Part shown: one piece after another, positions 41,377 to 61,282 of the stretch
How the letters are laid out: every line of letters begins with the position of its first letter
Numbering within the stretch: the stretch's first letter is position 1
Assembly: GCA_030583785.1 (NCBI GenBank)
Contig: CP129475.1
Span: 159,559 to 223,558, forward strand
Reading direction: 5' to 3'
From: Candidatus Dojkabacteria bacterium
GTDB lineage: Bacteria; Patescibacteriota; Dojkabacteria; B142; OLB20
DNA length: 64,000 nt
Translations under genes and position numbers: made by a program
The notes under the pieces: generated by a model
The model's database searches: none
The model's input: only the letters and a program-made list of their open reading frames with translations
What the model was told of the DNA's origin: nothing

Positions 41377-43776
41377 ATGGGAAATCAACTTAAGGGCTTA
41401 ACAAATCAAGAGGTATCAGAACGGATTGCTGAAGGAAAGGTAAATACGATTACTTCACCGGACACAAAATCGTTCTGGCAGATACTGGCCAGTAACATAA
41501 TTGATCTGCCAAATATGATTATCTTCTTTTCGGTGATTGCTTTGTTTATATATGCAGAACCAAAAGACGCAGTTATTATCTCCCTAATTGTTGTAACAAA
41601 TATCATTGTCTCGGTTTATCAAGAAGTATCTGCCAGAAATTCTCTTAAAAAAATCCAATTGCTTAGCAGAGATAGAATCATCGTTATTAGAGAGGGGCAA
41701 CAACAAGAAATTGACCCAGAAGAAGTAGTTGCCGACGATTTAATTTTCATAGAATCCGGCAAATATGTTTATGTGGATGGCAAAGTTATCTCTGAAGAAG
41801 GGCTTTTAATAGACGAATCGATACTTACAGGAGAATCAGACTACAGCAATGTTAATGAGGGTCAAGAAATTCTTTCTGGCTCATTTGTAGTTGCTGGCAA
41901 GGGTTATTATCAAGCTATTAAGGTAGGCCCCGAAAGCTTTATCAACAAGATAACAAGCGAAACCAAAAGCTATGTTGCCTATCTTTCGCCTCTGCAAAAG
42001 CAAGTGAATAAAATGCTTAAAGGTTTGACTTACCTTACTATTGTTTTAATAGCAGTTATTGTTGCACGCAATCTAGTCATAAGAGAGTTCTCACAGGGCG
42101 AACTGGCTGAAGCAATTGTTTCGGTAATCAGCTCTATGGTGCCACAAGGAATTGTTTTAACCTTAACCATCGCTTTTATGCTTGGAGCAACCAGAATGGG
42201 CACAAAGAGAATTATTGTTCAAAAGGCAAGCACAATAGAAACACTAGCAGGCATAAAATACTTATGCATGGATAAAACCGGAACAATAACTAGAAATATT
42301 CTCGAACTAAAGAAGATTTTACCTTTCCATAATTATACTCGAACAAGAACAGAAGAGTATCTTGCACTTTACGCCAACCTAAGTCTTGAACAGAACAAAA
42401 CAATCAAAGCAATAGGCGATGCACTTAAACTAAATCCAGACATGGACATGCCTAATGTGGCCGAGCAACTTCCATTTACCTCGAGAGCTAAGATGAGCGG
42501 ATTATCTCTTAAAGACGAAACTGGCTACAATCATTTGCTTTTCGGATCTGTCGAAAGCCTAATCAATTACTGCAAAATTGAGTATCATAGGGAGATAATA
42601 GATCTTGAAGAAGAATATGCAAAACAAGGCATGCGTGTGCTCATCCTGCTTCATCGTTTTCAAAATAATGAAAAAAAACTATTAAGTGATGATAAAAAAT
42701 ATAATCCAGCAGCAATAGTTGTATTAGAAGACAGGCTTCGAGAAGGATCGAGATCAATTATGCAAACATTTATTGATAAAAAAGTTAAGCCACTGATTAT
42801 CTCCGGGGATCACCCAGAAACACTCAAAGCCCTAATCAAACAATTAAACATTAGTACCTTAACAAATATTACTACCGGAAAAAGACTGGCCGAATGCACT
42901 ACAGAAACTGAATTTGACGATCTAGTTCATGAAAGCGATATCTTTGCCAGAGTTAGCCCTGAACAAAAGGTAGAAATAATTAAATCTCTTCAAAAAGGCA
43001 AGACTTATGTAGCAATGGTTGGAGATGGAGTAAACGATGCTCTCGCCATAAAACAGGCAAATCTCGGTATTGCTATGGGGAGCGGAGCAAATGTAACTAA
43101 GAATATCGCCGACATTATTCTTCTGGACGACAACATTGCCTCGCTTGCAGACATTGTAGATGAAGGAAGGATTATTCTAATTAATACTCTAAGATCCGCT
43201 CAGTTACTAATCATGCGGCATGCATACTCGATAATTATCATTATCGGTGCATTATTGCTAGGGCTTACTTTTCCATTCTATCCATTTGGATTATTCCTGC
43301 TTGCCTTTACAAATGGGAGTATCCCCGTTTTGGCTATTGTTCTAGCTAAACCAACAGAAATGAAAATGCCGGATTTTCTTGGTGAACTTGCAGATTTCTT
43401 AATTGCAGGAGGCATTCCTGCAGGAATATTATCACTAATCCTTCTTGTTAATCACCAAGGCTATGACCAAAGAGAGGTGCAAACTATGTTGCTTGCGTTT
43501 CTAACTGTTGTCGGTGTCATTAACTATTTATTTACCATAAAGAATTCATTCCAGCTATCAGACATTCTTAAGCCAGAGAAATTAAGCCTACTCGCTCCGT
43601 TTATTATCGTGTTTTATTTAATGGCGATGTATATTCCGCTCTTTAGTAACTTTGTTGAAATGACACCTTTGAGTTTATCTACCTGGGTCGAAATAGGAGG
43701 CTTGTTGCTTATTTATATTGGTGCAATGTCAATAATTGGAACGACCCTTAAATCAAAACTGATCAAGGGTCGCTAA
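41377..43776 (+). CDS. cation-transporting P-type ATPase (P2/P3-like)
   Basis: 'CMDKTGTITRN', 'MVGDGVNDALAIKQANLGIAMG'; 799 aa; 10-TM architecture. Confidence 0.8.
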   Translation: MGNQLKGLTNQEVSERIAEGKVNTITSPDTKSFWQILASNIIDLPNMIIFFSVIALFIYAEPKDAVIISLIVVTNIIVSVYQEVSARNSLKKIQLLSRDRIIVIREGQQQEIDPEEVVADDLIFIESGKYVYVDGKVISEEGLLIDESILTGESDYSNVNEGQEILSGSFVVAGKGYYQAIKVGPESFINKITSETKSYVAYLSPLQKQVNKMLKGLTYLTIVLIAVIVARNLVIREFSQGELAEAIVSVISSMVPQGIVLTLTIAFMLGATRMGTKRIIVQKASTIETLAGIKYLCMDKTGTITRNILELKKILPFHNYTRTRTEEYLALYANLSLEQNKTIKAIGDALKLNPDMDMPNVAEQLPFTSRAKMSGLSLKDETGYNHLLFGSVESLINYCKIEYHREIIDLEEEYAKQGMRVLILLHRFQNNEKKLLSDDKKYNPAAIVVLEDRLREGSRSIMQTFIDKKVKPLIISGDHPETLKALIKQLNISTLTNITTGKRLAECTTETEFDDLVHESDIFARVSPEQKVEIIKSLQKGKTYVAMVGDGVNDALAIKQANLGIAMGSGANVTKNIADIILLDDNIASLADIVDEGRIILINTLRSAQLLIMRHAYSIIIIIGALLLGLTFPFYPFGLFLLAFTNGSIPVLAIVLAKPTEMKMPDFLGELADFLIAGGIPAGILSLILLVNHQGYDQREVQTMLLAFLTVVGVINYLFTIKNSFQLSDILKPEKLSLLAPFIIVFYLMAMYIPLFSNFVEMTPLSLSTWVEIGGLLLIYIGAMSIIGTTLKSKLIKGR

Positions 43777-44199
43777 TTTAGATTTGTTTTCGATATTTTT
43801 TTTAGCCACATTGATTCTAGCTAGTTCTTTTTCGATTTTCGCCTGTACTCTTGCGAACTCAACATCTGCAATATCCTGTTTCTTCTTTAGATACTCAATG
43901 GCTTTTTGTCTGGCTTCTTCGGCTCTAGCAAGATCGATTTCTTCGGCTCTTTCTGCCGTATCTGCCAAAATATGGATTTCGCTTTCGCGTCTAATCTCAA
44001 TAATTCCTTTGGATACTGCAAGCTCCACCTGATGATCTCCTTTGTCGATTATCAATTCACCAGCGGTAATAATCGAAACTAAAGGTATATGATCATCCAT
44101 AATTGTAATAACACCTGCAGCAGTAGGAACTGTCAAAGACTTGATCTGCTTATCTTCGTAAATTGTACCTTGCGGTGTGGCAATAATTAAATGAACCAT
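43753..44199 (-). CDS. atpC: F1 ATP synthase epsilon subunit
   Basis: 'LIIATPQGTIYEDKQIKSLTVPTAAGVITIMDDHIPLVS'; last gene of the atp operon. Confidence 0.8.
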   Translation of the reverse strand: MVHLIIATPQGTIYEDKQIKSLTVPTAAGVITIMDDHIPLVSIITAGELIIDKGDHQVELAVSKGIIEIRRESEIHILADTAERAEEIDLARAEEARQKAIEYLKKKQDIADVEFARVQAKIEKELARINVAKKNIENKSKLATLDQF

Positions 44200-44201
44200 A
44201 A

Positions 44202-45617
<1,416 letters not shown>

Positions 45618-45624
45618 TTAATAA

Positions 45625-46545
45625 CTAATCTTGTTCAAGTGCGTTTGCACCACTCGTGATTTCTGCAATCTCTTGAGTAATAGCTGCTTGACGCCCTTTG
45701 TTAAATATTAATGTTAAATTGTCGATCATTTCACCAGCTGATTCTGTAGCATTCTTCATTGCCATCATTCTGCTACTATGTTCACTAGCCGCCGATTCTA
45801 AAATCGAGTGATAAATCTGCACTTCGACAAGAAGTGGAATCAGATATTCTATTAAAACAGTCCTATTTGGTTCAAAGGCATATTCATCTGCAGTGAACCT
45901 GTCCGGATTGTCATTAAATTCCTTACCTGAGTTAATTGATGTTGTAGTAATATCATCTACCATTTCTTTAATTACATTTGGTTTCAAGGGGAGAACCTGC
46001 TTGTGTTCTACAATCTGTAAGAGTCCGGAAACATAATTGGTGTAGACTATTTCGACTTTACCGTATTCTCCAGCTTTAAAGCGATTCATAATGTCTACTG
46101 CAATAGGGATAACATCTTCAAACGATACATTCTCTGAAAATCTCTCGTATACACCTAAAAGGTTAAGTTTGTTTCTTTTGGCAAATGCTGCGGACTTTTT
46201 TCCTAAAGCGAGAATATCTGGTTGGTTGCTTTCTGCTTGTAAGATTTGATTTGCAGTCTTAGCAACATTAGCATTATAGCTACCGCACAAACCCCTGTTG
46301 GATGTAACCATTATTATTAGTGTTTTAGAAACAATTTGATCTAGCATCAGGGGATGGCTAATCTTTTGTTTTGCTAAATTTTCGAGAAGTTCATAGGCCA
46401 AATTAGCATAGGATCTCATTTGAATGGCAGATTCAACCGCTTTTCGCATTTTAACTGCAGCGATCATCTGCATAGCCTTAGTGATCTTTTTTGTATTCTT
46501 AACAGACTTGATTCTGGTTTTAATTGCTTTGGTATTTACAGGCAT
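45625..46545 (-). CDS. atpG: F1 ATP synthase gamma subunit
   Basis: Conserved N-terminal 'IKTRIKSVKNTKKITKAMQMIAAVKMRKA' and C-terminal 'ITQEIAEITSGANAL'. Confidence 0.9.
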   Translation of the reverse strand: MPVNTKAIKTRIKSVKNTKKITKAMQMIAAVKMRKAVESAIQMRSYANLAYELLENLAKQKISHPLMLDQIVSKTLIIMVTSNRGLCGSYNANVAKTANQILQAESNQPDILALGKKSAAFAKRNKLNLLGVYERFSENVSFEDVIPIAVDIMNRFKAGEYGKVEIVYTNYVSGLLQIVEHKQVLPLKPNVIKEMVDDITTTSINSGKEFNDNPDRFTADEYAFEPNRTVLIEYLIPLLVEVQIYHSILESAASEHSSRMMAMKNATESAGEMIDNLTLIFNKGRQAAITQEIAEITSGANALEQD

Positions 46546-48050
46546 TAATCTGTTTTAAACTCTTTGGTAAAGTCTTTGGCAATAGCAGATAATTCTTCTT
46601 TTAACTCGTCACTCCAATCTGCTGCTATGATTTTTTCGACTACACTTGGCTTAGTAGATTTAACAAATTCTATGAAGTCATGCTCTGCCTTTTTAATTAG
46701 TTCTACTTTGATATCATCAAAAAAACCGTTGCTAGCAGCAAAAATTCCAAGAACTTGATCCTCAACGGGTTGTGGGTTGTATGGAGGTTGTTTAAGAAGT
46801 TCTGTTATTCTTCTGCCTCTTTCGATTTTTTTCCGAGTGTCTTCATCAAGATCACTTGAAAACTGTGCAAAAGCTTCTAATTCTCGGAATTGAGCAAGAT
46901 CGAGCTTCATGCTTCCGGCAACTTTCTTCATTGGTTTTGTTTGTGCAGCGCCACCGACTCTGGAAACAGACAACCCGACATTAACTGCAGGTCTTGTTCC
47001 TTTATAGAACAAACTTGTTTCAAGAAATATCTGTCCATCTGTAATTGAGATTACATTTGTTGGCACATATGCAGAAATGTCTCCGGCTTGAGTTTCGATT
47101 ATGGGAAGGGCGGTAATCGAACCACCTCCGTTTTCTTTATTAAGGTTTGCTGCTCGCTCTAATAGCCTTGAGTGTAGATAGAAGACATCTCCCGGATAAG
47201 CTTCTCTTCCTGGAGGGCGTCTTAATAGGAGCGACATTTCGCGATATGCCCATGCATGTTTTGTTAAGTCATCATAGACAACAAGTACATCTTTACCTTT
47301 AGCTGCAAAATATTCTGCTAAAGAAACCCCAGAGTAGGGGGCAAGGTAAAGCATAGGAGCTGGATCTGATGCGCTGGCAAGTACAACTGTTGTGTATTCC
47401 ATTGCTCCTCTTTCTTTGAGAGTATTCACAATTCGAGCGACCTTTGATTCCTTTTGACCTATGGCAACATATATGCAGATAACTCCTGTGCCTTTTTGGT
47501 TAAGGATTGTATCGATCGCAATAGTTGTTTTTCCAGTCTGTCTATCGCCAAGAATTAATTCTCTTTGACCACGACCGATTGGAATTAAAGCGTCAATCGC
47601 TTTGATTCCAGTTTGCAATGGAACGGATACAGGTTCTCTGGTCATAACTCCTGGAGCAATCTTTTCTACAGGTGAAAACTCTGTTGTAGCAATGTCTCCA
47701 TTACCATCTATCGCGTCTCCTAAAGGATTAATAACTCTGCCAATCATATCTTCTCCAACTGGAATTGACATAATCTTTCCTGTTCTTTTAACAACATCTC
47801 CTTCTTTAATTCCGATGTAATCACCTAAGATAATAGCTCCGACCGTGTCAAATTCGAGGTTTAGTGCGAGACCTGTAACTCCTCCGCTAAATTCAAGCAT
47901 CTCTTGTGACTGAGCTTTAGCCAAGCCTTCGACAAGAGCTATGCCGTCCTTAACTTCGAGAACGGTTCCAACTTCTTCTCTTTGAATAGTGGGGTCGTAC
48001 TGCTCAATTCCTTCTTTGAGAGAAGAGACAATTTTATTTGTGTCTGTCAT
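46545..48050 (-). CDS. atpA: F1 ATP synthase alpha subunit
   Basis: '[11 protein letters not shown]' P-loop; 501 aa. Confidence 0.95.
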
Positions 48051-48306
48051 ATGTTTTAAGGTTGTATAATTTATGTCTTAATTTATCGAGTTGCGATCTG
48101 ATGCTTCCATCAAATAACTCGGTCTTTTTTTGAATTCGAATGCCTCCTATTAAAGTCTCATCAATTTCTTCTTGAATACGAAGATTATCTCCAAATAAAA
48201 CTGATATTCTTTGCTTATCTTCTTCGCTAATTTCTTGTGCACTCCTGACAATTATTTGATCAGGAGCCCTTAGTGGCTTATATTTTCGTCTACGCTTATG
48301 CTTCAT
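48034..48306 (-). CDS. atpH: ATP synthase delta (OSCP) subunit, C-terminal domain only (90 aa)
   Basis: '[25 protein letters not shown]' matches the delta C-terminal domain; sits between atpF and atpA with overlaps at both ends, leaving no room for the N-terminal domain. Confidence 0.55.
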
Positions 48307-48815
48307 TTTTCTTCTAACTGATCAAGGTAACTATCAATTATTTCTCGATCTCTTTTTTTATCGAGTTTTTCTTTAATAATTTTCTCTGTTGCCATTATTG
48401 CCAAATCTGCAGTTTCTTTTTTAAGACTGGCTATCATTTGTTTGCGCTCTAACTCGATTTGCTCTCGTGATTTTTGTTCGAGTTCAGAAATATCGTCTTG
48501 AGCCTGGTTTTTAATATTTGTTGCTAGAAGCTCGGCTTCCTTTTTAGAATTCATAATAATTTCTGTGCCATCATGCTTTGCCTTATCAACAATCTCTGCA
48601 GAAAGTTGTTCTGCCATTTTCAGTTCGTGCTTATATTTTTCGGCATCGTCAAGTCCTTCTTGAATCTTTGCTTGTCTTGCATCAAGAGCATCGAAAATCT
48701 TTTTAAAAAAGAATTTTCGCAATACCAGTAGTATCACAAGAAAGTTGACAACATTAAATAAAAACATTTTGCCGTCAAAACCAATTTTCGCAAATACTTC
48801 GTTAATATCCATCAA
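48303..48815 (-). CDS. atpF: Fo ATP synthase b subunit
   Basis: N-terminal TM then long charged coiled coil; 170 aa; operon position. Confidence 0.75.
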   Translation of the reverse strand: MMDINEVFAKIGFDGKMFLFNVVNFLVILLVLRKFFFKKIFDALDARQAKIQEGLDDAEKYKHELKMAEQLSAEIVDKAKHDGTEIIMNSKKEAELLATNIKNQAQDDISELEQKSREQIELERKQMIASLKKETADLAIMATEKIIKEKLDKKRDREIIDSYLDQLEEK

Positions 48816-48831
48816 TCATAAGATAATCGTT

Positions 48832-48856
48832 GCAGCTGCCCCTTCGGGGCAGCTGC
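48832..48856 (-). other. GC-rich stem-loop in the atpE-atpF intergenic region
   Basis: GCAGCTGCCCC-TTC-GGGGCAGCTGC, a perfect 11-bp stem in an AT-rich context; no U-tract on the transcribed strand. Confidence 0.4.
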
Positions 48857-48864
48857 AAAAAAAG

Positions 48865-49080
48865 TTAAATTAAGAAGAATGCCACCAAAGAATAAATTGC
48901 TGTTGACTCAACAAGAGCTACAGAAATGATTACTTTGCTGAACATTGTCTCTTCCAGTTTAGGATTGCGCCCGATTGCTTTAAATGCAGATGACACAACA
49001 AGTCCTTCAGCAATGGCATTGGCTGCCATTCCCAAGATTGTAAAGGACTTTGCAAAAACTGTTGCTGATTCTGGGTCCAT
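48865..49080 (-). CDS. atpE: Fo ATP synthase c subunit
   Basis: Two-TM hairpin with essential carboxylate in 'SVALVESTAIYSLVAFF'; 71 aa. Confidence 0.85.
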   Translation of the reverse strand: MDPESATVFAKSFTILGMAANAIAEGLVVSSAFKAIGRNPKLEETMFSKVIISVALVESTAIYSLVAFFLI

Positions 49081-49102
49081 GAATAAACATTAAAAAAATA
49101 AA

Positions 49103-49891
49103 TTATTCTTCACTTAGAGCCATTCCGAAATATGATGCCGTTAAAGCGCTGAACACAATTGCTTGTATTACTCCCGAAAAAAGAGATAGCACAAAGAAGG
49201 GAATAGGCAAAAATAATGCAAAGATTCCCATCATAACTGAAGCCAGCAATTCTCCAGCAAAAATATTTCCGAACAACCTAAGTGATAATGATAAAGATTT
49301 TGCAAGCTCGGATACAACATCTAGTAAGCCTACAAAGAAATCTATAAAGGATAATATCCCTGCCCCAATTCCTTTCTTAAAACCTTCAATAATTCCTCCG
49401 AAACGAAAGTAACTATTCAGATAAGCAGGTACTCCTTTTTTATGAATTGAAAAGATATGTACAAATACGATTACGGCTACAGCTAATCCGAAAGTTGAAT
49501 TGAAATCAGAGGTAGTTGGTCTAAATAAACTCTGACCATCATAAGTTATCGATGTTATACCTGGTATCAGCAAAACCGTGTTAGATATCAGAAGGTATAA
49601 CATTAGTGTTCCAACAATCGGGAAGATTCGGCGGGCGATCTCTTCCTTTCCGGTGATCTGTGTAAAGAAGTTTAGAGCTGTTTGAACAATTATTTCAATA
49701 ATTAACTGGAATTTGCCAGGTTTAGAGTATACTAGCAAACTTCTTGAAGCCCAAATAGACAATAATATCAACAGAAATGTTACTAACAGTGCAGAAATCA
49801 TGCTGTTAGTAAAACCGACTCCAAACAGTGAGAATATCACATCTGATTGGACACTAATTAATTCAGATTTAAGTTGAAATAATGAACCCAT
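49103..49891 (-). CDS. atpB: Fo ATP synthase a subunit
   Basis: 'LSLRLFGNIFAGE' with essential Arg; 262 aa. Confidence 0.85.
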   Translation of the reverse strand: MGSLFQLKSELISVQSDVIFSLFGVGFTNSMISALLVTFLLILLSIWASRSLLVYSKPGKFQLIIEIIVQTALNFFTQITGKEEIARRIFPIVGTLMLYLLISNTVLLIPGITSITYDGQSLFRPTTSDFNSTFGLAVAVIVFVHIFSIHKKGVPAYLNSYFRFGGIIEGFKKGIGAGILSFIDFFVGLLDVVSELAKSLSLSLRLFGNIFAGELLASVMMGIFALFLPIPFFVLSLFSGVIQAIVFSALTASYFGMALSEE

Positions 49892-49897
49892 GATTGA

Positions 49898-50215
49898 TTA
49901 CTCTTTCGATTTTGTAGCTGACTTTTGTTTTTCTTCAAGTGCAGCCTCTGATTGGTCTGGCATATTCTTATAGCCAGTTAATATTCCGAATTTCTTATCC
50001 ATAATGAAAATTCCTACCCATGACATAACAAAAAAGAATGCAAGGATTGCTAAGGATCCCCATGGTCTTGAGTCGAAATGGTTGTCTATGGCTCTGCCGA
50101 TAAAAGCAGCAATAACCGCAGGGACGGAAAAAATGAAAAGAGCTTTAAGCGTGAGCATGTATGTTCTTCTTTTAATTCTTTTTAACTGTTCTTCGCGTGT
50201 TTCCTTCTCTGACAT
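49898..50215 (-). CDS. small membrane protein, AtpI/AtpZ-like (upstream of atpB)
   Basis: 105 aa with two TM helices and charged termini; positional analogy only. Confidence 0.3.
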   Translation of the reverse strand: MSEKETREEQLKRIKRRTYMLTLKALFIFSVPAVIAAFIGRAIDNHFDSRPWGSLAILAFFFVMSWVGIFIMDKKFGILTGYKNMPDQSEAALEEKQKSATKSKE

Positions 50216-50285
50216 CAGGTTTTTAAATTAACAAGGGGATTATACAACAAGTACATATCAAGTGATAGCAATTTGCAACCAGATA

Positions 50286-50597
50286 CTAACTCTTCTGTAA
50301 AGGTCGATACTTGACACAATAATGAATGATCCCTTCAGAACTATCAGAATAAAGCTTGCGATACACTGGCTCACAGTCTATTCCAGAGGCTAGATCTGCT
50401 TCGTTGCAATCAACAAGCTGAACAGTTGCTTTGCTTTTGTCTGAAAACTGCACTATAGCTATGATATATGGCGTATATGCTTCGAATCCAGACGGTGCGG
50501 CATGTACGGTAGACCAGGTGAGCAGGGTTGCATTACCTTTGTCTTGATACCTTTCTTGATATCTTCTCCAAACTTTTGCAGAACTTTTCTTATACAT
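50286..50597 (-). CDS. DUF35/OB-fold protein (thiolase/HMGCS scaffold partner), start trimmed to internal ATG
   Basis: 'YQERYQDKGNATLLTWSTVHAAPSGFEAYTPYIIAIVQF...ATVQLVDCNE' OB-fold typical of archaeal DUF35; immediately downstream of the thiolase. Confidence 0.5.
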   Translation of the reverse strand: MYKKSSAKVWRRYQERYQDKGNATLLTWSTVHAAPSGFEAYTPYIIAIVQFSDKSKATVQLVDCNEADLASGIDCEPVYRKLYSDSSEGIIHYCVKYRPLQKS

Positions 50598-51729
50598 TTG
50601 CAAAAATACTAACAACTGAAGTACCTCCGCTACCCCCGACATTATGGGCAAGTGCAAAATTTGGAATATTTGCTAGCTGTCTTTTACCGGCTTGACCTGT
50701 CATTTGTTCAAATATCTCAACCACTTGCTTTATTCCTGTAGCACCTACCGGGTGACCGCATGATTTTAAGCCGCCCGATGTATTTACGGGAAGAGCACCA
50801 TCTCTATAAGCGCTCTTATCTTCTATCAATTCAAATCCTTTTCCTTCTTTTGCAAAGCCGAGATCTTCGTAAGCTATAATTTCTGCAATTGAGAAACAAT
50901 CGTGAAGTTCAACAAGTCCGATGTTTTTTCTGCTAATACCAGCTTCTTTAAAGGCTAAATCTGCTGATCGAACTGTCGCATCAATGCTTGTAAAAGATGG
51001 TCTGTTTTGCAAAGAAATACTCCCAGTTGAAACCTGGCTTGATAGTAGTTGGATTTTTGACTTTTGCACCGAAAGAACAATTCCAGCAGCTCCATCTGTA
51101 ATTGGTGAACAATCAAGCAATCCAAGTGGATCAGCAACAGCTGGTGCACCAACGACATCTTCTACTGTTATTTCCTTTTGAAACTGCGCTTTCTCATTTA
51201 ATGTCCCATGGAAATGGTTCTTAACACTTACTTCTGCGAGTTGTTCTTTGGTAAGACCGAATTTGCTCATGTAAGCTCTAGCCATCATTGCGTAGAGTGA
51301 AGGAAAAGTTGCTCCAAAGTAAGCTTCGTATTCTTCGTCAGCAGCTCTTGCTAGCACCTTTGTAACATCATTAGCTGAGACATCGGTCATCTTTTCTACA
51401 CCAATTACTAAAACATTTTTACAGTTGTTTGCAAGCATGTAAGATTTAGCAAGGTTAATTGCTACTCCGCCACTTGCACATGCAGCTTCGATACGAAAAG
51501 CAGGAACATTTATATCAAGCTGGGAAGCAATCAATGAACCCAGATGATCTTGACCGCTGAGACTTGATGAACCCATGTTGGCAACAAAAATTGCATCAAT
51601 AGCTTTTCTTTCAATCTCTGCAGATTGTAGTGCTGATTTTGCCGCATCAATTGCCAACGATCTAAGATCTTCTTTCCAGAGTTCTCCGAATCTTGTCATT
51701 CCTGCTCCAGATACATAGACTTTCTTCAT
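50590..51729 (-). CDS. acetyl-CoA acetyltransferase (archaeal-type thiolase)
   Basis: 'EAACASGGVAINLAKSYM' active-site Cys, 'NTSGGLKSCGHPVGATG' C-terminal thiolase signature; 379 aa. Confidence 0.8.
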   Translation of the reverse strand: MKKVYVSGAGMTRFGELWKEDLRSLAIDAAKSALQSAEIERKAIDAIFVANMGSSSLSGQDHLGSLIASQLDINVPAFRIEAACASGGVAINLAKSYMLANNCKNVLVIGVEKMTDVSANDVTKVLARAADEEYEAYFGATFPSLYAMMARAYMSKFGLTKEQLAEVSVKNHFHGTLNEKAQFQKEITVEDVVGAPAVADPLGLLDCSPITDGAAGIVLSVQKSKIQLLSSQVSTGSISLQNRPSFTSIDATVRSADLAFKEAGISRKNIGLVELHDCFSIAEIIAYEDLGFAKEGKGFELIEDKSAYRDGALPVNTSGGLKSCGHPVGATGIKQVVEIFEQMTGQAGKRQLANIPNFALAHNVGGSGGTSVVSIFANV

Positions 51730-52805
51730 AATTTAATCTTGCCAACCGAAGTAATGTAGTAAGAATAATCAACATAAGTTTTATTCTCAATTTGTTCTTT
51801 AACAGTCTGGGAATTCTTGTAGTTCTTTATATTTTTCGTTGTCTCAATTATGAAAGCATCACTTCCAGAGCCTGAACCGTATGAACATACAAAAATCTTC
51901 TCATTTGGCTTTGCAACATCTAGCACAGCGGCTAAACCAACAAGTGAACATGCAGAATATGAGTTACCAAGAAGAGGTACAGTAAAACCTGCTCTCAATT
52001 GTTCAGCATTGAAACCTAAATCTTTTGCTGCTTTCTGCGGAAAACGAGCATTAGGCATGTGAAAAACAGCATGGGCAAAATCTGAAGGCTTGTAATTTGA
52101 TTCTTCAAGAATTACTTTCGTTGCAGCATAAACATGTTTAAAGTAGGCAGGTTCACCCGTGAACCTGCCGGCATGACTAGGGTATAATTCATGTCCTCTT
52201 CTCCAGAAATCAGGAGTGTCACTTGTAAACGAACTTGAAAACAGCACATTCGCAATAATTTCTTTCGGATCAGTTCCTATAAGATATGCGGCACCTGCTG
52301 CAGCTGCACTATATTCAAGGGCATCTGCTGGTCTGCTTTGCGCTGTGTCTGCTCCGATAGCCAAGCCATATTCAATCATTTTTGAAGAAGAGAGGCCTAA
52401 GATCATCTGTAAGGCGGCTGTTCCAGCCTTACATGCAAATTCTGTGTCAGCGGCAGTGTAAGAGTTTCCTATTCCAAGAGCCTCGCCAACGATAGCCGAA
52501 GTAGATTTTACTGCGTAAGGGTGGCTTTCTGAACCAGTATATATCGCACCTATCTTTAGTTTCTTAGCTGAGATATTATCAACTGCATACTTTGCTGATT
52601 GCATGGCAAGAGATATTGTATCTTCATCTGGTGCGGGAACTGTTTTTTCAACGAGTCCCAAAGAAGAAGTGATTTGTTCACCGTCTTTTCCCCATACCGA
52701 AGCAATTGTATTAATACTAATCCTTCTTCTGGGAATTGACACTCCGTAACTTACTATTCCTGAATTATTTATTTTCATGTCTACCTCCTCGTCCAAATTT
52801 TTCAT
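51726..52805 (-). CDS. hydroxymethylglutaryl-CoA synthase (archaeal-type; likely start at internal ATG 52778)
   Basis: 'GIVSYGVSIPRRRISINTIASVWGKD', 'ACKAGTAALQ' catalytic Cys; 359 aa; overlaps the HMGR stop. Confidence 0.8.
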   Translation of the reverse strand: MKNLDEEVDMKINNSGIVSYGVSIPRRRISINTIASVWGKDGEQITSSLGLVEKTVPAPDEDTISLAMQSAKYAVDNISAKKLKIGAIYTGSESHPYAVKSTSAIVGEALGIGNSYTAADTEFACKAGTAALQMILGLSSSKMIEYGLAIGADTAQSRPADALEYSAAAAGAAYLIGTDPKEIIANVLFSSSFTSDTPDFWRRGHELYPSHAGRFTGEPAYFKHVYAATKVILEESNYKPSDFAHAVFHMPNARFPQKAAKDLGFNAEQLRAGFTVPLLGNSYSACSLVGLAAVLDVAKPNEKIFVCSYGSGSGSDAFIIETTKNIKNYKNSQTVKEQIENKTYVDYSYYITSVGKIKL

Positions 52806-54042
52806 GAGCAGATGCTAATGTACCTTGAGCAAGCGCCGCATGAAGGCTAATTTCTGCGGCCATAACACCACAAGCAAGAATTTCTGCAAAGGCTAATACT
52901 CGATTTGTAGAAATTGTTCGCTTTGAGCTTATATCTGTAAGCATTAAGTCTCTAGCTGTCTTCTGGGCTGGCAGAGAAGTACCTCCACCTACATCACCAG
53001 CAGGAACACTTGGAAGCGTAACAGATACATAGAGATTATTATTATCTTCTTCCATGAGACAGTAACCGGCTGAAGCGTCTACAACATGTGCCAAGTCTTG
53101 TCCGGTTGCGGCAAACACAGCAGCAACGATATTGGCAAAATGAGCGTTATAACCAAGATTAGAACCTGCATAAGCGCTTCCATGCCATACCTTGACTTTA
53201 TTCACTTCTACTATGCTTGCAATATCCGTTTTTAGAACTTTTGTTACTATCTCTGCAGGAATCTTTACTTCAGCCTGTACACTTATGCCTCTTCCGTTAA
53301 TTATGTTGATCATTGCCTGTTTTTTATCTGTACAGAGATTACCAGAAAGAGCTACCAACCTTGCCGTAGGATAGTGCTGTTGAATATAGTCGCAGATTTG
53401 TTGCGCAGCTTTAGTTGCCATATTCATGCCCATTGCATCCCCAGTATAGAATGAAAGCCTGAGCCAGACTTCTCGTCCCAGCTGATAACAAGTTATGTCT
53501 TTAAACTTTAGATAATGACTGTTCTTTTCTGATTCGCTTTGAAGTAGAATTTTGTTTGTATGTACCCAATTTATAAATGCTTCTGCGTCTGAGATACTAT
53601 CAAGTTTAAAAACAGGAGCACGAGTCATACCATTATTTTTAGCATGAGCTGATGCACCTCCTGCCATGTTAATTGCTTTTGCGCCACGACTAGTGCTTGC
53701 AACAAGGGTTCCTTCTGTTGTGGCCATTGGCAAGAAGTAACTGCCATTAGAATTCCCACCAGATATTTTAATAGGTCCGGCAATTCCGAGTGGCAACTGA
53801 ATTGATCCAATTAGATTTTCAATATTCCGTTTTTGCAGTTTTCCTGGCTCTAAAGAGATATCACTGACCGATGCTAAATCTTGTTCAACAAGGTCTTCAA
53901 TGTATTTTCTTCTATTTATCATTGATTCTTCAGGTGAGACATCTGTATCAAAGGATTGAAGCGGAATAATTTCTGATGCTGATTTCGGACTGCTTAATTG
54001 CGCCATTGCGCCATGTAAAAAGTAAACAGAATTATAGTACAA
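52765..54042 (-). CDS. hydroxymethylglutaryl-CoA reductase, class I
   Basis: 'YTGDAMGMNMATKA', 'GTEGTLVASTSRGAKA', 'VDASAGYCLMEED'; 425 aa. Confidence 0.85.
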   Translation of the reverse strand: MYYNSVYFLHGAMAQLSSPKSASEIIPLQSFDTDVSPEESMINRRKYIEDLVEQDLASVSDISLEPGKLQKRNIENLIGSIQLPLGIAGPIKISGGNSNGSYFLPMATTEGTLVASTSRGAKAINMAGGASAHAKNNGMTRAPVFKLDSISDAEAFINWVHTNKILLQSESEKNSHYLKFKDITCYQLGREVWLRLSFYTGDAMGMNMATKAAQQICDYIQQHYPTARLVALSGNLCTDKKQAMINIINGRGISVQAEVKIPAEIVTKVLKTDIASIVEVNKVKVWHGSAYAGSNLGYNAHFANIVAAVFAATGQDLAHVVDASAGYCLMEEDNNNLYVSVTLPSVPAGDVGGGTSLPAQKTARDLMLTDISSKRTISTNRVLAFAEILACGVMAAEISLHAALAQGTLASAHEKFGRGGRHENK

Positions 54043-54118: not shown

Positions 54119-55003
54119 ATGAAAGATACAGCAATAGAAATTATTAATCTGCATAAGTCTTTTGGTCAAGTTCAGGCTGTTAAAGGTTTGAATCTAGAAG
54201 TTCATAGGGGTGAAATATTTGGATTCTTGGGCCCAAATGGTGCAGGTAAAACTACGACTATCAGGACAATGTTAAATTTTATAATTCCGGATCAAGGAAA
54301 AATTAAGATACTTGGCCAAAATCCCGCCTTTAACTCACAAATACTAATGCGCGAAATCGGTTACATCGCAGGCGAAATTGCCCTCTGGGATAATTATAAG
54401 GTCGGAAGCTTCCTGAATGCTTTAGAAGATATTCGTGGCGAGAGCGGAGCGATTCGCAATTCCCTTATCGAAAGATTTCAACTTGATGAACATAAAAAGA
54501 TCAAAAGCCTGTCTAAGGGCAATAAGCAAAAGGTTGCCATAATACAAGCTTTTATGCACGAGCCAAAAGTATTGATACTAGACGAGCCAAGTTCGGGACT
54601 TGATCCAATCTTACAAAACGAGTTTTATCATCTTCTGGCAGAAGTCAAACACAGGGGAGGAACAGTTTTCTTCTCATCACATGTACTTTCTGAAGTGCAA
54701 AAAGTATGCGATCGTGTTGCCGTAATTAAAGATGGAGAGCTTGTAAGTATTGAAACAATTAGCGAACTACGAAATAAAAATATCTTTCGCATAGAGCTTA
54801 CCTATAGCGGAAAAGGGCCGACAGAAAATGATTTTGGTAAGGATAACATTGAAAACTTTGAAACATCAGCTAATAATTTAATCAGATTTACCTATAAAGG
54901 AGAAATTAATTCTTTACTGGCTATTCTGAATCAATTTGACCTTGCTAATCTTACGATAAGCGAACCGAGTATCGAAGATATTTTTCTTGCTTATTACAAC
55001 TAA
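54119..55003 (+). CDS. ABC transporter ATP-binding protein
   Basis: Walker A 'GPNGAGKTT', ABC signature 'LSKGNKQKV', Walker B 'LILDEP'. Confidence 0.8.
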   Translation: MKDTAIEIINLHKSFGQVQAVKGLNLEVHRGEIFGFLGPNGAGKTTTIRTMLNFIIPDQGKIKILGQNPAFNSQILMREIGYIAGEIALWDNYKVGSFLNALEDIRGESGAIRNSLIERFQLDEHKKIKSLSKGNKQKVAIIQAFMHEPKVLILDEPSSGLDPILQNEFYHLLAEVKHRGGTVFFSSHVLSEVQKVCDRVAVIKDGELVSIETISELRNKNIFRIELTYSGKGPTENDFGKDNIENFETSANNLIRFTYKGEINSLLAILNQFDLANLTISEPSIEDIFLAYYN

Positions 55004-55008
55004 TCTCG

Positions 55009-55836
55009 ATGAAAAGGCTGCTGACATTGATAAGGCATGATTTAAACGATAGCAAGATCGGATTAATTTCTGTTGTAGTTATTGCACTTTCTATCGGAGC
55101 ATTATTTGGCGCCTTTTACCCAACCATTCGTGAGAATGCAGATGGCATCGCCATGCTTGCTCAAGGCGAAATTGCAGCTCTATTCTTTAACATCAGCGCC
55201 GATGATGTCGCAGATTTTGATTTCAGTGACTACAATGTCTATATCAGCACAGAATACTTCAGCTTCTTTTGGGCAGTATTATTCGTTCCATTTCTAATCT
55301 CTTGGGGAGTAAAAATGGCAGGTCAAGCAGAAAAGGGCACTCTAGCATTGCTTCTGGCGCACCCTGTAAGCAGAACAGATGCTGTTAACAGCCAACTTCT
55401 TTCGTTAGCCGCCAAAGCAGCTTTGACAGCCTTTGCTTTCATTGTTAGTGCAGGTCTACCTGCATTATTTATCGAAGATACAAATCTTGATTTAGTTGCC
55501 TGGCTTAGAGTCGGGGTATTCTATTTGGTCATCTTTATTACGATCAGCTACATAGCTTTTGCCGCATCAATTGTTACCATGTCGAAGCTCAAAGGAATCT
55601 GGATTACAACTGTAATCATTGTTTTGGGTTATCTGTTTAATACAATCTCAAATCTAGTTAGCGAAGTTGAATTCCTAAAGTATGCATCACTCTGGCATTA
55701 TATGGGAAATACCACAAAACAGCTCCAGGGCGAACCACTTTATACCCTAGGATTCCTTGTATTCTTACTGGTTGCAATTATATGCATTGTTATTCCGGTT
55801 CTTGTCTTTGATAAGAAGAACCTTCCCAACGGTTAA
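55009..55836 (+). CDS. ABC-2 family permease
   Basis: Six predicted TM helices; immediately downstream of the ABC ATPase. Confidence 0.55.
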   Translation: MKRLLTLIRHDLNDSKIGLISVVVIALSIGALFGAFYPTIRENADGIAMLAQGEIAALFFNISADDVADFDFSDYNVYISTEYFSFFWAVLFVPFLISWGVKMAGQAEKGTLALLLAHPVSRTDAVNSQLLSLAAKAALTAFAFIVSAGLPALFIEDTNLDLVAWLRVGVFYLVIFITISYIAFAASIVTMSKLKGIWITTVIIVLGYLFNTISNLVSEVEFLKYASLWHYMGNTTKQLQGEPLYTLGFLVFLLVAIICIVIPVLVFDKKNLPNG

Positions 55837-57532: not shown

Positions 57533-57597
57533 AAATCCCGTTTAAAATATATCCATTATATCACACGGGAATTGATTGAGTTATTTTCTTTTTAAGC

Positions 57598-60238: not shown

Positions 60239-61282
60239 TTGCCATTCAAATACAACATCGACAACACAGTTCTTAATATCCTCAGCAGATTCTATGAACT
60301 CCATGGTGCCATTTATGCTAGCCTGCATTTACTTCCCGGTGATATTCTTAAAGATCTAACCGAAAAAACATCTGAACTCGCCGCTTTTGCAGCTGTAACG
60401 AAGAATACCAATCTTATTCGCGAGGCAGGCTCAGAACTTATTCAAAATAGCATTCTAAGCCAGGTCCCAATTGAAAGAAGGCTTTACTATAAACAATACC
60501 TACATATCCTCAAGGATTTTAAAAAGATGGTGGTAACACCAGAATTCAACAACGATTTTATTGTCAACTTACATCGCCATGTACTGGGCAGAGATGAAAA
60601 CAACGCTCATTTTCGCACAGCACGAAAAAAACTTTCTGCAGAATATATCGAAGATGGAATTCACTACACAGTTAATTCAGAAGTAAAAACATCACCAGAC
60701 GACATAGAAACCAAGCTTGAAAGTTTTGTGGAGTGGCTTAACGCCAATTACAACAGCGAGAACCCAATTATTCTTGCAGCAATGACATATTTTCAGATCG
60801 CAGCAATTCATCCATTTCAAAGAGCTAATGGAAGAATGTCTAAGCTGCTTGCTCGTAGAATACTATACAGTAACGCAATCGACCCAAGATTAGTATTGTC
60901 AATTGACGACTATTTTGTACTGCATCAGCATTATTACTACAAAGTTATTGAAAGAGCAATTAATAGCCTCGATCTAACAGAGTGGATAGAATTCTTTGCA
61001 AAAGCGATGCTACATTCCGCCATGCAAACTTGTGATTTGCTAAAACAACTTTCTGGAGGTTCAATTGATATTAAAAGGCAAAGGTATATCAATCTTACTC
61101 CCAGAGAAATTCGAGCACTTAGAATAATAATGAACGAGAACAGTGTCAGCGGTTCATACATAGCCAAAAAATTAAAAACCAGTCGTCAGAATGTTCACGA
61201 GATAATAAAATCACTAATTGATAAAGGACTTATCGCCAAAAAAGGAAAAAACACTGGCACAAGATATGTATATTCCCAGTAA
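60239..61282 (+). CDS. Fic-family protein with C-terminal winged-helix domain
   Basis: 'AAIHPFQRANGRMSKLLA' (HPFx[D/E]GNGR-type Fic motif with Ala for Gly); C-terminal wHTH 'LTPREIRALRII...SRQNVHEIIKSLIDKGLI'. Confidence 0.6.
   Translation: MPFKYNIDNTVLNILSRFYELHGAIYASLHLLPGDILKDLTEKTSELAAFAAVTKNTNLIREAGSELIQNSILSQVPIERRLYYKQYLHILKDFKKMVVTPEFNNDFIVNLHRHVLGRDENNAHFRTARKKLSAEYIEDGIHYTVNSEVKTSPDDIETKLESFVEWLNANYNSENPIILAAMTYFQIAAIHPFQRANGRMSKLLARRILYSNAIDPRLVLSIDDYFVLHQHYYYKVIERAINSLDLTEWIEFFAKAMLHSAMQTCDLLKQLSGGSIDIKRQRYINLTPREIRALRIIMNENSVSGSYIAKKLKTSRQNVHEIIKSLIDKGLIAKKGKNTGTRYVYSQ

What the first reader, a model, noticed from the sequence alone, without database searches (positions are those of the whole stretch)
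50286..54042. Archaeal-type mevalonate upper-pathway cassette (class I HMGR - HMGCS - thiolase - DUF35) directly upstream of, and co-directional with, the atp operon
Seen: four co-directional, start/stop-overlapping genes. The class I HMG-CoA reductase carries the 'DAMGMNM' motif. The HMG-CoA synthase, the thiolase and the ~100-aa DUF35/OB-fold protein all have archaeal-type sequence. Established: in archaea the thiolase/HMGCS/DUF35 trio forms a substrate-channelling complex feeding the mevalonate pathway, and most bacteria use MEP instead. No mevalonate kinase or decarboxylase lies in this window. Inference: the cassette looks horizontally acquired, or is an ancient archaeal-like module. The gene immediately after it (50215→49898) starts the ATP synthase operon, with only a ~70-bp gap. 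This suggests co-transcription of isoprenoid-lipid precursor synthesis with the membrane ATPase.
Basis: partly seen in the sequence, partly recalled or inferred. Interest (0 to 1): 0.6.

Follow-up and report, generated by a model that had tools for sequence, protein, structure and literature searches.

The report
Dojkabacteria mevalonate operon beside ATP synthase
This is the usual archaeal-like set of genes that candidate-phyla-radiation bacteria use to start making isoprenoid building blocks; it is native to the lineage and already described, and lying next to the ATP synthase genes is most likely a local accident of gene order.

Summary
Four overlapping minus-strand genes encode a class I HMG-CoA reductase, an archaeal-type HMG-CoA synthase, an archaeal-type thiolase and a small DUF35 protein. 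A complete atpIBEFHAGDC operon starts 70 bp downstream. The window comes from a Dojkabacteria (WS6, CPR) genome; its HMGCS is 99% identical to that of WS6 OLB21.

- **Origin:** HMGCS and thiolase fall in a clade of CPR-like sequences (98-100% NJ bootstrap). Base composition and codon usage match the rest of the window. Recent transfer from archaea is therefore not supported. That CPR, including Dojkabacteria, carry archaeal AACT, HMGS and HMGR-I was published in 2018 (PMC6107057).
- **ATP synthase link:** the adjacency recurs in WS6 OLB20 within a collinear block. It is absent from six other CPR-like loci and about 80 archaeal or Ignavibacteria loci. The gap holds a -10 box conserved in OLB20, so the atp operon has its own promoter. 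No terminator is present, so read-through remains possible.
- **Lower pathway:** no such genes lie in the window. Relatives have them; this genome could not be checked.

Modest novelties: the DUF35 lacks the zinc ribbon found in all solved DUF35 structures, and OLB20 fuses HMGR to HMGCS.

The parts
52765..54006 (-). Class I HMG-CoA reductase (413 aa), first gene of the cassette
   Evidence: PF00368 E=6e-117. TIGR00533 (NADPH type) scores 398 bits, below its 441.8 cut-off. Best PDB match is 6HR7, the M. thermolithotrophicus HMGR, E=4e-90. Motifs NIENLIG, GDAMGMNM, CTDKK, TGQD and SAHEKF are present. The 413-aa call appears on six independent contigs.
54031..54036 (-). Candidate -10 box (TATAAT) of the cassette promoter, starting 30 nt before the HMGR ATG
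   Evidence: It is one of seven genes with a perfect TATAAT starting at -26..-30 (0.155 expected, Poisson P=4e-10). Function is inferred.
51726..52778 (-). Archaeal-type HMG-CoA synthase (350 aa); overlaps the HMGR stop by 14 nt
   Evidence: NF003274 scores 466 bits and TIGR00748 HMG_CoA_syn_Arc scores 417 bits, both above cut-off. 6ESQ_I E=9e-112, with the Glu, Cys, His and Asn catalytic positions conserved. 99% identical to KXK10348.1 of WS6 OLB21.
50590..51729 (-). Archaeal-type acetoacetyl-CoA thiolase (379 aa); ATGA overlap with HMGCS
   Evidence: NF004720 scores 463 bits, above cut-off. NF053570 AcCoTHIOL_METTL scores 407 bits, below its 600 cut-off. 6ESQ_A E=1.2e-86, with the CAS, HDCF and GHP motifs kept.
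50286..50597 (-). Short DUF35 protein (103 aa): N-terminal helix plus OB fold, with no zinc ribbon; ATGTATAA overlap with the thiolase
   Evidence: Only PF01796 is detected. Against 6ESQ_E (E=1.3e-14), query residues 15-100 align to chain residues 44-128 and query 8-21 resembles chain 4-17, so the ribbon segment is deleted. Alignment with homologues fixes the start. AF2 model pLDDT 87.8 shows a helix plus a five-strand barrel. Best fold match is 6ESQ_E.
50216..50285 (-). 70-nt intergenic gap between the cassette and the atp operon
   Evidence: Sequence. No terminator-like site. Folding energy is not unusual, z=-0.76.
50239..50244 (-). Candidate -10 box (TATAAT) of an atp-operon promoter, starting 29 nt before the atpI ATG
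   Evidence: The block TTGTTGTATAATC plus TTGTTAAT is conserved in WS6 OLB20, which also has TTGACA 15 nt upstream, although the flanking proteins are only 55-59% identical.
49898..50215 (-). AtpI/AtpZ-like small membrane protein (105 aa), first gene of the atp operon
   Evidence: PF09527 scores 24.8 bits, just below its 26.6 cut-off. A homologue at 55% identity occupies the same position in OLB20.
43753..49891 (-). F1Fo ATP synthase genes: atpB (49103-49891), atpE (48865-49080), atpF (48303-48815), atpH (48034-48306, truncated to 90 aa), atpA (46545-48050), atpG (45625-46545), atpD (44202-45608), atpC (43753-44199)
   Evidence: Pfam hits.
54119..55836 (+). Divergently transcribed ABC transporter pair (ATPase plus ABC-2 permease), a conserved upstream neighbour of the cassette
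   Evidence: Pfam hits. The same neighbour is present in L087 and L104; L101 has only a 40-aa fragment match.
41377..43776 (+). P-type ATPase convergent with atpC
   Evidence: Pfam hits. In L087 and L101 a 50%-identical homologue lies just beyond the cassette with no atp operon in between.

Best explanation
The region is the native upper mevalonate-pathway operon of a Dojkabacteria (WS6, CPR/Patescibacteria) bacterium.

**Proposed mechanism**
- The thiolase condenses two acetyl-CoA to acetoacetyl-CoA.
- HMGCS adds a third acetyl-CoA to give HMG-CoA.
- By analogy with the solved archaeal complex, thiolase and HMGCS are held together by the DUF35 protein, so the unfavourable first step is pulled by the second.
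- The class I reductase then reduces HMG-CoA to mevalonate.
- The four genes are translationally coupled through overlapping stops and starts. They are probably transcribed from a promoter about 30 nt upstream of the HMGR start.

**History.** The module is inherited within CPR and is not a recent import from archaea. It feeds a lower pathway encoded elsewhere in the genome. The likely end products are polyprenyl phosphates for cell-envelope synthesis.

**ATP synthase operon.** It lies next to the cassette because of gene order shared by one Dojkabacteria sub-lineage. It has its own promoter in the 70-nt gap. Some read-through from the cassette is possible because no terminator is present.

**Shown versus inferred.** Shown: gene identities, catalytic motifs, clade membership, composition, synteny pattern and conservation of the -10 box. 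Inferred: complex formation, channelling, promoter activity, presence of the lower pathway and the end products.
For: - **Family assignments:**
- **Structural relatives:** the best PDB matches for all four proteins are the M. thermolithotrophicus enzymes.
- **Catalytic motifs retained:** HMGCS keeps the Glu/Cys/His/Asn positions. The thiolase keeps CxS, HDxF and GHx (motifs as defined in PMC12960953).
- **Organism:** HMGCS is 99% identical to WS6 OLB21. Its 90% cluster includes a Dojkabacteria protein on a 1.17-Mb contig.
- **Phylogeny:** NJ trees place the window inside a CPR-like clade with bootstrap 98% (HMGCS), 98% (thiolase) and 100% (concatenated).
- **Composition:** cassette GC is 0.40-0.41 against 0.383+-0.020 for the window. 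Codon-usage distance is 0.47 against a null of 0.48+-0.13.
- **Operon order:** HMGR-HMGCS-thiolase-DUF35 recurs in L087, L089, L100-L102 and L104; L103 is cut off after HMGCS.
- **Lower pathway in relatives:** GHMP kinase, MVD, IPK and NUDIX/IDI genes lie beside or near the cassette. MVD is widespread in CPR, including named Dojkabacteria.
- **Promoters:** TATAAT starts at -26..-30 in 7 of 60 genes, including HMGR and atpI (P=4e-10). The atpI box is conserved in OLB20.
- **Literature:** CPR, with Dojkabacteria named, carry archaeal AACT, HMGS and HMGR-I, and form a CPR clade close to archaea (PMC6107057).
Against: - The DUF35 lacks the zinc ribbon. In the archaeal complex the cleft between ribbon and OB fold contacts the thiolase (PMC6996347). 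Scaffold function here is therefore an extrapolation.
- HMGR scores below the TIGR00533 equivalog cut-off (398 versus 441.8 bits).
- Lower-pathway genes could not be traced to this genome. None of the 120 best MVD hits is attributable to it.
- Several loci were labelled CPR-like from similarity and gene context. Only L087, L090 and L104 carry Dojkabacteria or WS6 names.
- The trees are neighbour-joining and unrooted.
- No transcript data exist for either promoter.
Confidence: 0.8

Rival explanations
1. The cassette and the atp operon form one functional transcription unit. This super-operon would co-regulate isoprenoid precursor synthesis with the membrane ATP synthase.
For: - The two units are co-directional and separated by only 70 nt, with no terminator-like site in the gap.
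- The gap RNA is not unusually structured.
- The same adjacency occurs in WS6 OLB20, which has diverged considerably (HMGCS 67%, DUF35 59%, AtpA 80% identity).
Against: - The gap contains a perfect TATAAT at the window's typical promoter distance.
- That box is conserved in OLB20, which adds a TTGACA -35 element, while the flanking coding sequence has diverged.
- The adjacency is absent from six other CPR-like loci.
- It is also absent from about 80 archaeal or Ignavibacteria loci within +-10 kb.
- In OLB20 the whole block (Fic, ABC transporter, cassette, atp) is collinear, with a P-type ATPase at its far end, as plain shared ancestry predicts.
Confidence: 0.15
2. The cassette was recently acquired by horizontal transfer from an archaeon, for example a co-occurring DPANN archaeon.
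For: - After the CPR homologues, the next-best HMGCS hits (53-58% identity) are DPANN and other archaea.
- The models and solved structures that match best are archaeal.
Against: - The closest homologues (59-67% identity) sit on bacterial, CPR-like contigs and form a clade with 98-100% bootstrap that excludes the archaeal sequences.
- No GC, GC3 or codon-usage anomaly is present.
- The flanking neighbours (ABC transporter, P-type ATPase) are conserved across diverged Dojkabacteria.
- Published trees give a CPR clade congruent with the CPR species tree (PMC6107057).
- An ancient transfer into the CPR ancestor is still debated (PMC11052028) and is not excluded here.
Confidence: 0.04
3. The thiolase/HMGCS-like/DUF35 trio has been repurposed, as in PhlABC or MucABC Friedel-Crafts acyltransferases, and does not make HMG-CoA.
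For: - PhlA, PhlC and MucABC structures appear among the PDB hits.
- The altered, ribbon-less DUF35 shows that the complex has changed.
Against: - The HMGCS catalytic Glu/Cys/His/Asn positions and the thiolase HDxF motif are lost in the repurposed complexes (PMC12960953). Here they are retained.
- The archaeal enzymes score far better than PhlA (9e-112 versus 1.5e-53).
- An HMG-CoA reductase gene overlaps the HMGCS gene, and in OLB20 the two are fused in frame.
- A ribbon-less DUF35 lies directly upstream of GHMP kinase, MVD and IPK on a relative's contig.
Confidence: 0.03
4. The cassette is an orphan remnant. The genome lacks the lower pathway, so the genes are non-functional or serve another role such as HMG-CoA or mevalonate exchange with a host.
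For: - No lower-pathway gene lies in the 64-kb window.
- No MVD among the 120 best hits could be tied to this genome or to the OLB20/OLB21 assemblies.
- CPR genomes are reduced.
Against: - All four ORFs are intact with catalytic residues conserved.
- They are conserved between OLB21-like and OLB20 lineages at 52-67% identity.
- Related Dojkabacteria and CPR contigs carry GHMP kinase, MVD, IPK and IDI-type NUDIX genes.
- Published surveys find that early and late MVA genes have the same distribution across CPR (PMC6107057).
Confidence: 0.08

Closest known systems
[quoted passage not shown] 2018, as cited in PMC12960953 and PMC6996347)
   Same: - Gene order HMGCS-thiolase-DUF35.
- Best solved-structure match for each of the three proteins.
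- HMGCS Glu/Cys/His/Asn positions and thiolase CxS, HDxF and GHx motifs are retained.
- The DUF35 N-terminal helix and OB fold are retained.
   Different: - The DUF35 has no rubredoxin-like zinc ribbon, with about 25-30 residues deleted. All solved DUF35 proteins bind zinc (PMC6996347).
- HMGR is the first gene of the same operon. It was adjacent in at most 2 of about 80 archaeal or Ignavibacteria loci examined.
- The host is a bacterium.
CPR mevalonate gene set described by Hoshino and Gaucher 2018 (PMC6107057)
   Same: - Archaeal AACT, HMGS and HMGR-I in a CPR bacterium; Dojkabacteria are named explicitly.
- The sequences form a CPR clade adjacent to archaea.
- The upper-pathway genes are clustered.
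   Different: - That paper mentions neither DUF35 nor ATP synthase.
- It reports typical synteny with cis-prenyltransferase. No prenyltransferase is found in this window.
- The lower pathway was not seen here.
Class I HMG-CoA reductase of M. thermolithotrophicus (PDB 6HR7) and eukaryotic catalytic domains (1DQ8)
   Same: - Full-length catalytic domain: 6HR7 E=4e-90 and human E=8e-73.
- The ENxIG, DAMGMN, DKK, GQD and C-terminal His motifs are present.
   Different: - Scores below the TIGR00533 equivalog cut-off.
- In the relative WS6 OLB20 it is fused in frame to HMGCS as a 760-aa protein.
PhlABC / MucABC bacterial HMGS-like/ACAT-like/DUF35 acyltransferases (PDB 5M3K, 9VBO; PMC12960953)
   Same: Three-component thiolase-fold plus DUF35 architecture. 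These structures are detectable homologues.
   Different: The repurposed complexes have lost the HMGCS catalytic tetrad and the thiolase HDxF motif but keep a zinc-ribbon DUF35. The window shows the opposite pattern: catalytic motifs kept and ribbon lost.

Membership tests
Archaeal-type thiolase/HMGCS/DUF35 complex | Adjacent genes in the order HMGCS, thiolase, DUF35 | tested here: met
   The same order is found in the roughly 80 archaeal and Ignavibacteria loci and in the CPR-like loci.
Archaeal-type thiolase/HMGCS/DUF35 complex | HMGCS with the catalytic Glu-Cys-His-Asn tetrad | tested here: met
   The alignment to 6ESQ_I conserves SESHPY, EFACKAGT, VFHxPN and LGNxYS. The tetrad is defined in PMC12960953.
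Archaeal-type thiolase/HMGCS/DUF35 complex | Thiolase with CxS, HDxF and GHx motifs | tested here: met
   CAS, HDCF and GHP all align with 6ESQ_A.
Archaeal-type thiolase/HMGCS/DUF35 complex | [quoted passage not shown] | tested here: not met
   - The OB fold is present (PF01796; AF2 model; best fold match 6ESQ_E).
- There is no PF12172 hit and no CxxC pair. Chain residues about 18-43 of 6ESQ_E have no counterpart.
Archaeal-type thiolase/HMGCS/DUF35 complex | Physical complex with a shared CoA-binding site and intermediate channelling | not testable with these tools
   This needs co-purification, structure determination or multimer modelling.
Class I HMG-CoA reductase (NADPH) | Full PF00368 domain with catalytic Glu, Lys, Asp and His, and the DAMGMN motif | tested here: met
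   - PF00368 E=6e-117 over profile positions 3-368.
- NIENLIG, CTDKK, TGQD, SAHEKF and GDAMGMNM are present.
- The assignment of the catalytic residues rests on my own knowledge of human HMGR (E559, K691, D767, H866).
Class I HMG-CoA reductase (NADPH) | Score above the TIGR00533 equivalog cut-off | tested here: not met
   398.1 bits against a cut-off of 441.8. The protein is divergent but clearly class I: the class II model TIGR00532 scores only 52.6 bits.
CPR mevalonate pathway (PMC6107057) | Archaeal AACT, HMGS and HMGR-I that group with CPR homologues | tested here: met
   NJ bootstrap 98-100% for a CPR-like clade.
CPR mevalonate pathway (PMC6107057) | [quoted passage not shown] | not testable with these tools
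   - Only 64 kb of the genome is available, and none of these genes is in it.
- Relatives have them.
- The MVD search could not be tied to this genome.
CPR mevalonate pathway (PMC6107057) | Synteny with a cis-prenyltransferase gene | tested here: not met
   No PF01255 hit in the window. The feature is present on a relative's contig.
F1Fo ATP synthase operon (atpIBEFHAGDC) | All eight structural subunits in the canonical order | tested here: met
   One caveat applies: the delta subunit is only 90 aa and matches only the C-terminal part of PF00213.
PhlABC/MucABC-type acyltransferase | Loss of the HMGCS tetrad and of the thiolase HDxF motif | tested here: not met
   Both are retained here, so the window's trio is not a member of this family.

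The most novel reading that the evidence does not exclude
In this Dojkabacteria lineage the upper mevalonate pathway may work as a four-enzyme assembly. A simplified, zinc-free DUF35 (helix plus OB fold) would still bridge thiolase and HMGCS. HMG-CoA reductase would be physically recruited as well, so that acetyl-CoA is channelled all the way to mevalonate.

Three observations point this way:
- HMGR heads the operon in nearly all CPR-like loci.
- All four genes overlap stop to start.
- WS6 OLB20 encodes an in-frame HMGR-HMGCS fusion of 760 aa, seen in two independent assemblies.

The ribbon-less DUF35 is widespread: 64 of the 150 best cluster representatives. It would be a variant of this scaffold family that I did not find described in the papers I read.
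Probability: 0.25. Interest if true: 0.5.

Novelty: new member of a known kind. Interest (0 to 1): 0.27.

Why it matters
The main point has little impact. An archaeal-like mevalonate module in CPR bacteria is published and is already used in debates about the origin of isoprenoid synthesis.

The useful outcome is corrective:
- The cassette is native to the lineage.
- Its position next to the ATP synthase operon is a lineage-limited gene-order feature with a separate, conserved promoter.
- The link between isoprenoid lipids and the ATPase should therefore not be pursued as a regulatory discovery.

Two side results could interest enzymologists. A large set of DUF35 scaffold proteins has lost the zinc ribbon thought to be universal in this family. 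A natural HMGR-HMGCS fusion also exists. Both bear on how the thiolase/HMGCS channelling complex is built, and on designing compact mevalonate modules for engineering.

Tried and rejected
- **Genome-contig scan with HMGCS.** It returned about 80 archaeal and Ignavibacteria loci and no CPR, because the peptide patterns hit universally conserved motifs.
- **Metagenome-contig scan with a DUF35 alignment.** It gave only 9 distant, short loci.
- **Word-index homologue search with the 103-aa DUF35.** It returned nothing. The exhaustive representative search was used instead.
- **Tracing a lower-pathway gene to this genome.** I searched with an MVD from a relative and read cluster members. Neither gave an attributable hit, so the question stays open.
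- **Early conclusion later revised.** I first concluded that the atp adjacency was unique to this strain (0 of 6 CPR-like loci). That was overturned when WS6 OLB20 showed the same arrangement.
- **Sigma-70 consensus scan.** It found nothing in the gap because no good -35 element is present. The positional enrichment of perfect TATAAT boxes was more informative.
- **Voegeli et al. 2018 (PMC5879682).** The paper is not held in the library. Its content is cited only through PMC12960953 and PMC6996347.
- **Multimer modelling of the complex.** It was not possible with the tools available.

Full report
**1. Observation**

The minus strand between 54006 and 50286 carries four intact genes that overlap stop to start.

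- **HMGR.** The first gene is a class I HMG-CoA reductase. PF00368 gives E=6e-117. TIGR00533 scores 398 bits, a little under its cut-off, while the class II model scores only 53 bits. The GDAMGMNM motif is present.
- **HMGCS.** The second gene is an HMG-CoA synthase. It exceeds the cut-offs of NF003274 (466 bits) and of the archaeal equivalog TIGR00748 (417 bits).
- **Thiolase.** The third gene belongs to the PRK06064 subfamily (463 bits).
- **DUF35.** The fourth gene matches only the OB-fold half of DUF35 (PF01796, E=1.6e-10).

Three start codons need correcting against the longest ORFs:
- HMGR starts at ATG 54006 (413 aa, as called on six independent contigs of the same strain).
- HMGCS probably starts at ATG 52778.
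- DUF35 starts at ATG 50597, which homologues fix as MYKKS..W.R.

The overlaps are then 14, 4 and 8 nt. The gap to the next gene is exactly 70 nt. That gene is a weak AtpI/AtpZ match (PF09527). It is followed by atpB, E, F, H, A, G, D and C. Pfam scans of the other larger ORFs found no GHMP kinase, MVD, IPK, IDI or prenyltransferase.

**2. Organism**

The window has a bacterial gene set: DnaK-GrpE-HrcA, RecO, UvrC and a MraY-like transferase. It also has many proteins without Pfam matches and about 38% GC. Its HMGCS is 99% identical to KXK10348.1 of candidate division WS6 bacterium OLB21. It shares a 90% cluster with a Candidatus Dojkabacteria protein on a 1.17-Mb contig. This is therefore a CPR/Patescibacteria genome.

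**3. Is the cassette archaeal-type, and was it transferred?**

The best solved-structure match for every one of the four proteins is the Methanothermococcus thermolithotrophicus enzyme:
- HMGCS: 6ESQ_I, 9e-112.
- Thiolase: 6ESQ_A, 1e-86.
- DUF35: 6ESQ_E, 1e-14.
- HMGR: 6HR7, 4e-90.

The closest sequence relatives, however, are not archaeal. HMGCS homologues at 59-67% identity lie on bacterial contigs, several of them named Dojkabacteria or Parcubacteria group. Archaeal, Ignavibacteria and some other CPR sequences follow at 50-58%.

I extracted HMGCS and thiolase from about 90 loci. In neighbour-joining trees the window falls in a clade made only of the CPR-like loci. Bootstrap support is 98%, 98% and 100% for HMGCS, thiolase and the concatenation.

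Composition agrees. Cassette GC (0.40-0.41), GC3 and codon usage are within the spread of the other 37 genes examined. The codon-usage distance is 0.47 against a null of 0.48+-0.13.

This matches Hoshino and Gaucher 2018. They report that CPR carry archaeal AACT, HMGS and HMGR-I, and they name Dojkabacteria. In their trees these form a CPR clade congruent with the CPR species tree and close to archaea (PMC6107057). Whether that reflects descent from a very old ancestor or an ancient transfer is still argued (PMC11052028). A recent transfer is not supported.

**4. Is it a real HMG-CoA-forming system?**

Bacterial relatives of this trio (PhlABC, MucABC) have been repurposed as acyltransferases. 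They have lost the HMGCS Glu-Cys-His-Asn tetrad and the thiolase HDxF motif (PMC12960953). Here both are kept.

The reductase gene overlaps the synthase gene. On a relative's contig, a DUF35 of the same short type sits directly before GHMP kinase, MVD, IPK, two prenyltransferases and carotenoid genes.

The most likely mechanism is therefore the known one. The thiolase makes acetoacetyl-CoA and HMGCS pulls the reaction forward. DUF35 holds the two together, and HMGR then makes mevalonate. Complex formation and channelling are inferred, not shown.

**5. The ATP synthase adjacency**

Six CPR-like loci with a readable downstream region have other genes after DUF35 and no atp genes within 8-10 kb. 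These are L087, L089, L090, L100, L101 and L102. None of about 80 archaeal or Ignavibacteria loci has atp genes nearby. In L087 and L101 the cassette is followed within a few genes by a P-type ATPase. In the window that ATPase lies just beyond the atp operon.

The adjacency is nevertheless not unique to this strain. WS6 OLB20 is a clearly diverged relative (HMGCS 67%, DUF35 59%, AtpA 80% identity). It has the same arrangement inside a collinear block running Fic, ABC transporter, cassette and atp, with a P-type ATPase at its far end. The adjacency is thus a shared gene-order trait of one Dojkabacteria sub-lineage.

Evidence for a separate atp promoter:
- A perfect TATAAT starts 29 nt before the atpI ATG.
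- Across the window, 7 of 60 genes have a perfect TATAAT starting at -26 to -30, against 0.155 expected (Poisson P=4e-10). Those genes include HMGR and atpI.
- The box and its surroundings (TTGTTGTATAATC and TTGTTAAT) are conserved in OLB20. OLB20 adds a TTGACA 15 nt upstream, even though the flanking proteins are only 55-59% identical.

No terminator-like hairpin lies in the gap, so some read-through is plausible. The evidence favours two transcription units. It gives no reason to propose a functional link between isoprenoid synthesis and the ATPase.

**6. What differs from the known system**

- **Ribbon-less DUF35.** The protein keeps the N-terminal helix and the OB fold but lacks the rubredoxin-like zinc ribbon. 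An AlphaFold2 model (pLDDT 87.8) shows a helix plus a five-strand barrel. Its best fold match is 6ESQ_E.
- **Contrast with solved DUF35 proteins.** All of them bind zinc, and in the archaeal complex the cleft between the two domains contacts the thiolase (PMC6996347).
- **How common the short form is.** Of the 150 best 50%-identity cluster representatives, 64 are 95-112 aa and none of these has two CxxC motifs. Another 55 are 125-150 aa, and 40 of these have both motifs. Cys-less intermediates also occur.
- **Position of HMGR.** It heads the operon in nearly all CPR-like loci but was adjacent in at most 2 of about 80 archaeal or Ignavibacteria loci.
- **Natural fusion.** In OLB20, HMGR is fused in frame to HMGCS as a 760-aa protein, seen in two independent assemblies.

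These points allow a more novel reading, a four-enzyme assembly built on a simplified scaffold. I rate that at about one in four.

**7. What remains open**

The lower pathway could not be checked in this genome. Relatives, including named Dojkabacteria, have GHMP kinase, MVD and NUDIX-type genes near or beside the cassette. No hit could be tied to this genome. Promoter activity, read-through and complex formation are all untested.

**8. Verdict**

The cassette is an ordinary member of the already described CPR mevalonate gene set. It is native to the lineage, and its position beside the atp operon is best explained by lineage-specific gene order with separate promoters. Interest is low to modest. 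The ribbon-less DUF35 and the HMGR-HMGCS fusion are the only features worth a follow-up.

Noticed in passing
window 48034-48306 (-); L104 12250-12528: The ATP synthase delta (OSCP) subunit is only 90 aa. It matches only positions 105-172 of PF00213, so the N-terminal domain is missing. The ORF cannot extend further because it overlaps the end of atpF by 4 nt. WS6 OLB20 has the same short form (92 aa).
   Followed up: partly
window 48830-48858 (-): A strong hairpin (13-bp stem, 9 G-C pairs) lies between atpE (c subunit) and atpF inside the atp operon. It has no clear T tract. It may be an mRNA-stability or attenuation element.
   Followed up: no
L104 6566-8848 (WS6 OLB20, GCA_001567355.1); also L105 2168-4450: HMG-CoA reductase and HMG-CoA synthase are fused in frame into a single 760-aa protein with no linker. 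The fusion appears in two independent assemblies. In the window the same two genes overlap by 14 nt in different frames.
   Followed up: partly
window 50286-50597 (-); P0255-P0404: DUF35 proteins without a zinc ribbon (about 100 aa) are common. They make up 64 of the 150 best cluster representatives. They include WS6 OLB20 and a JGI contig where one directly precedes GHMP kinase, MVD, IPK, prenyltransferases and carotenoid genes.
   Followed up: partly
window, upstream of the starts at 12749, 31910, 50215, 54006, 57532, 60239 and 63269: A perfect TATAAT starts 26-30 nt before the start codon of 7 of 60 genes (0.155 expected). This implies a regular promoter geometry with 5' leaders of about 17-20 nt in this organism. 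Most have no recognisable -35 element.
   Followed up: partly
L035, L048 (MAGs labelled 'archaeon'); L094, L096, L098, L099: The HMGCS and thiolase of two MAGs labelled as archaea group with the CPR-like clade and with some unlabelled metagenome loci (82% bootstrap in the concatenated tree). In L035 and L048 there is an extra spacer of about 0.9 kb between the two genes. The cause may be mislabelling or transfer.
   Followed up: no
L023, L025, L039, L041, L042, L044, L047, L049, L051, L057, L059, L064: Ignavibacteria, Melioribacter and other Bacteroidota MAGs carry the same archaeal-type HMGCS-thiolase arrangement, at 51-54% HMGCS identity to the window; eight of the twelve also show a DUF35 match after the thiolase. 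The ten with both proteins group next to the CPR-like clade in the concatenated tree (81% bootstrap).
   Followed up: no
window 17546-18640 (+) and 60239-61282 (+): Two Fic-domain proteins with C-terminal winged-helix domains are present. The second is conserved at the same relative position in WS6 OLB20 (63% identity).
   Followed up: no
window 55790-60081 (-): Two large proteins (580 and 827 aa) with no Pfam match lie between the ABC transporter and the Fic gene. They are present in same-strain contigs. In WS6 OLB20 the corresponding interval instead holds a CitMHS transporter and small ORFs.
   Followed up: no
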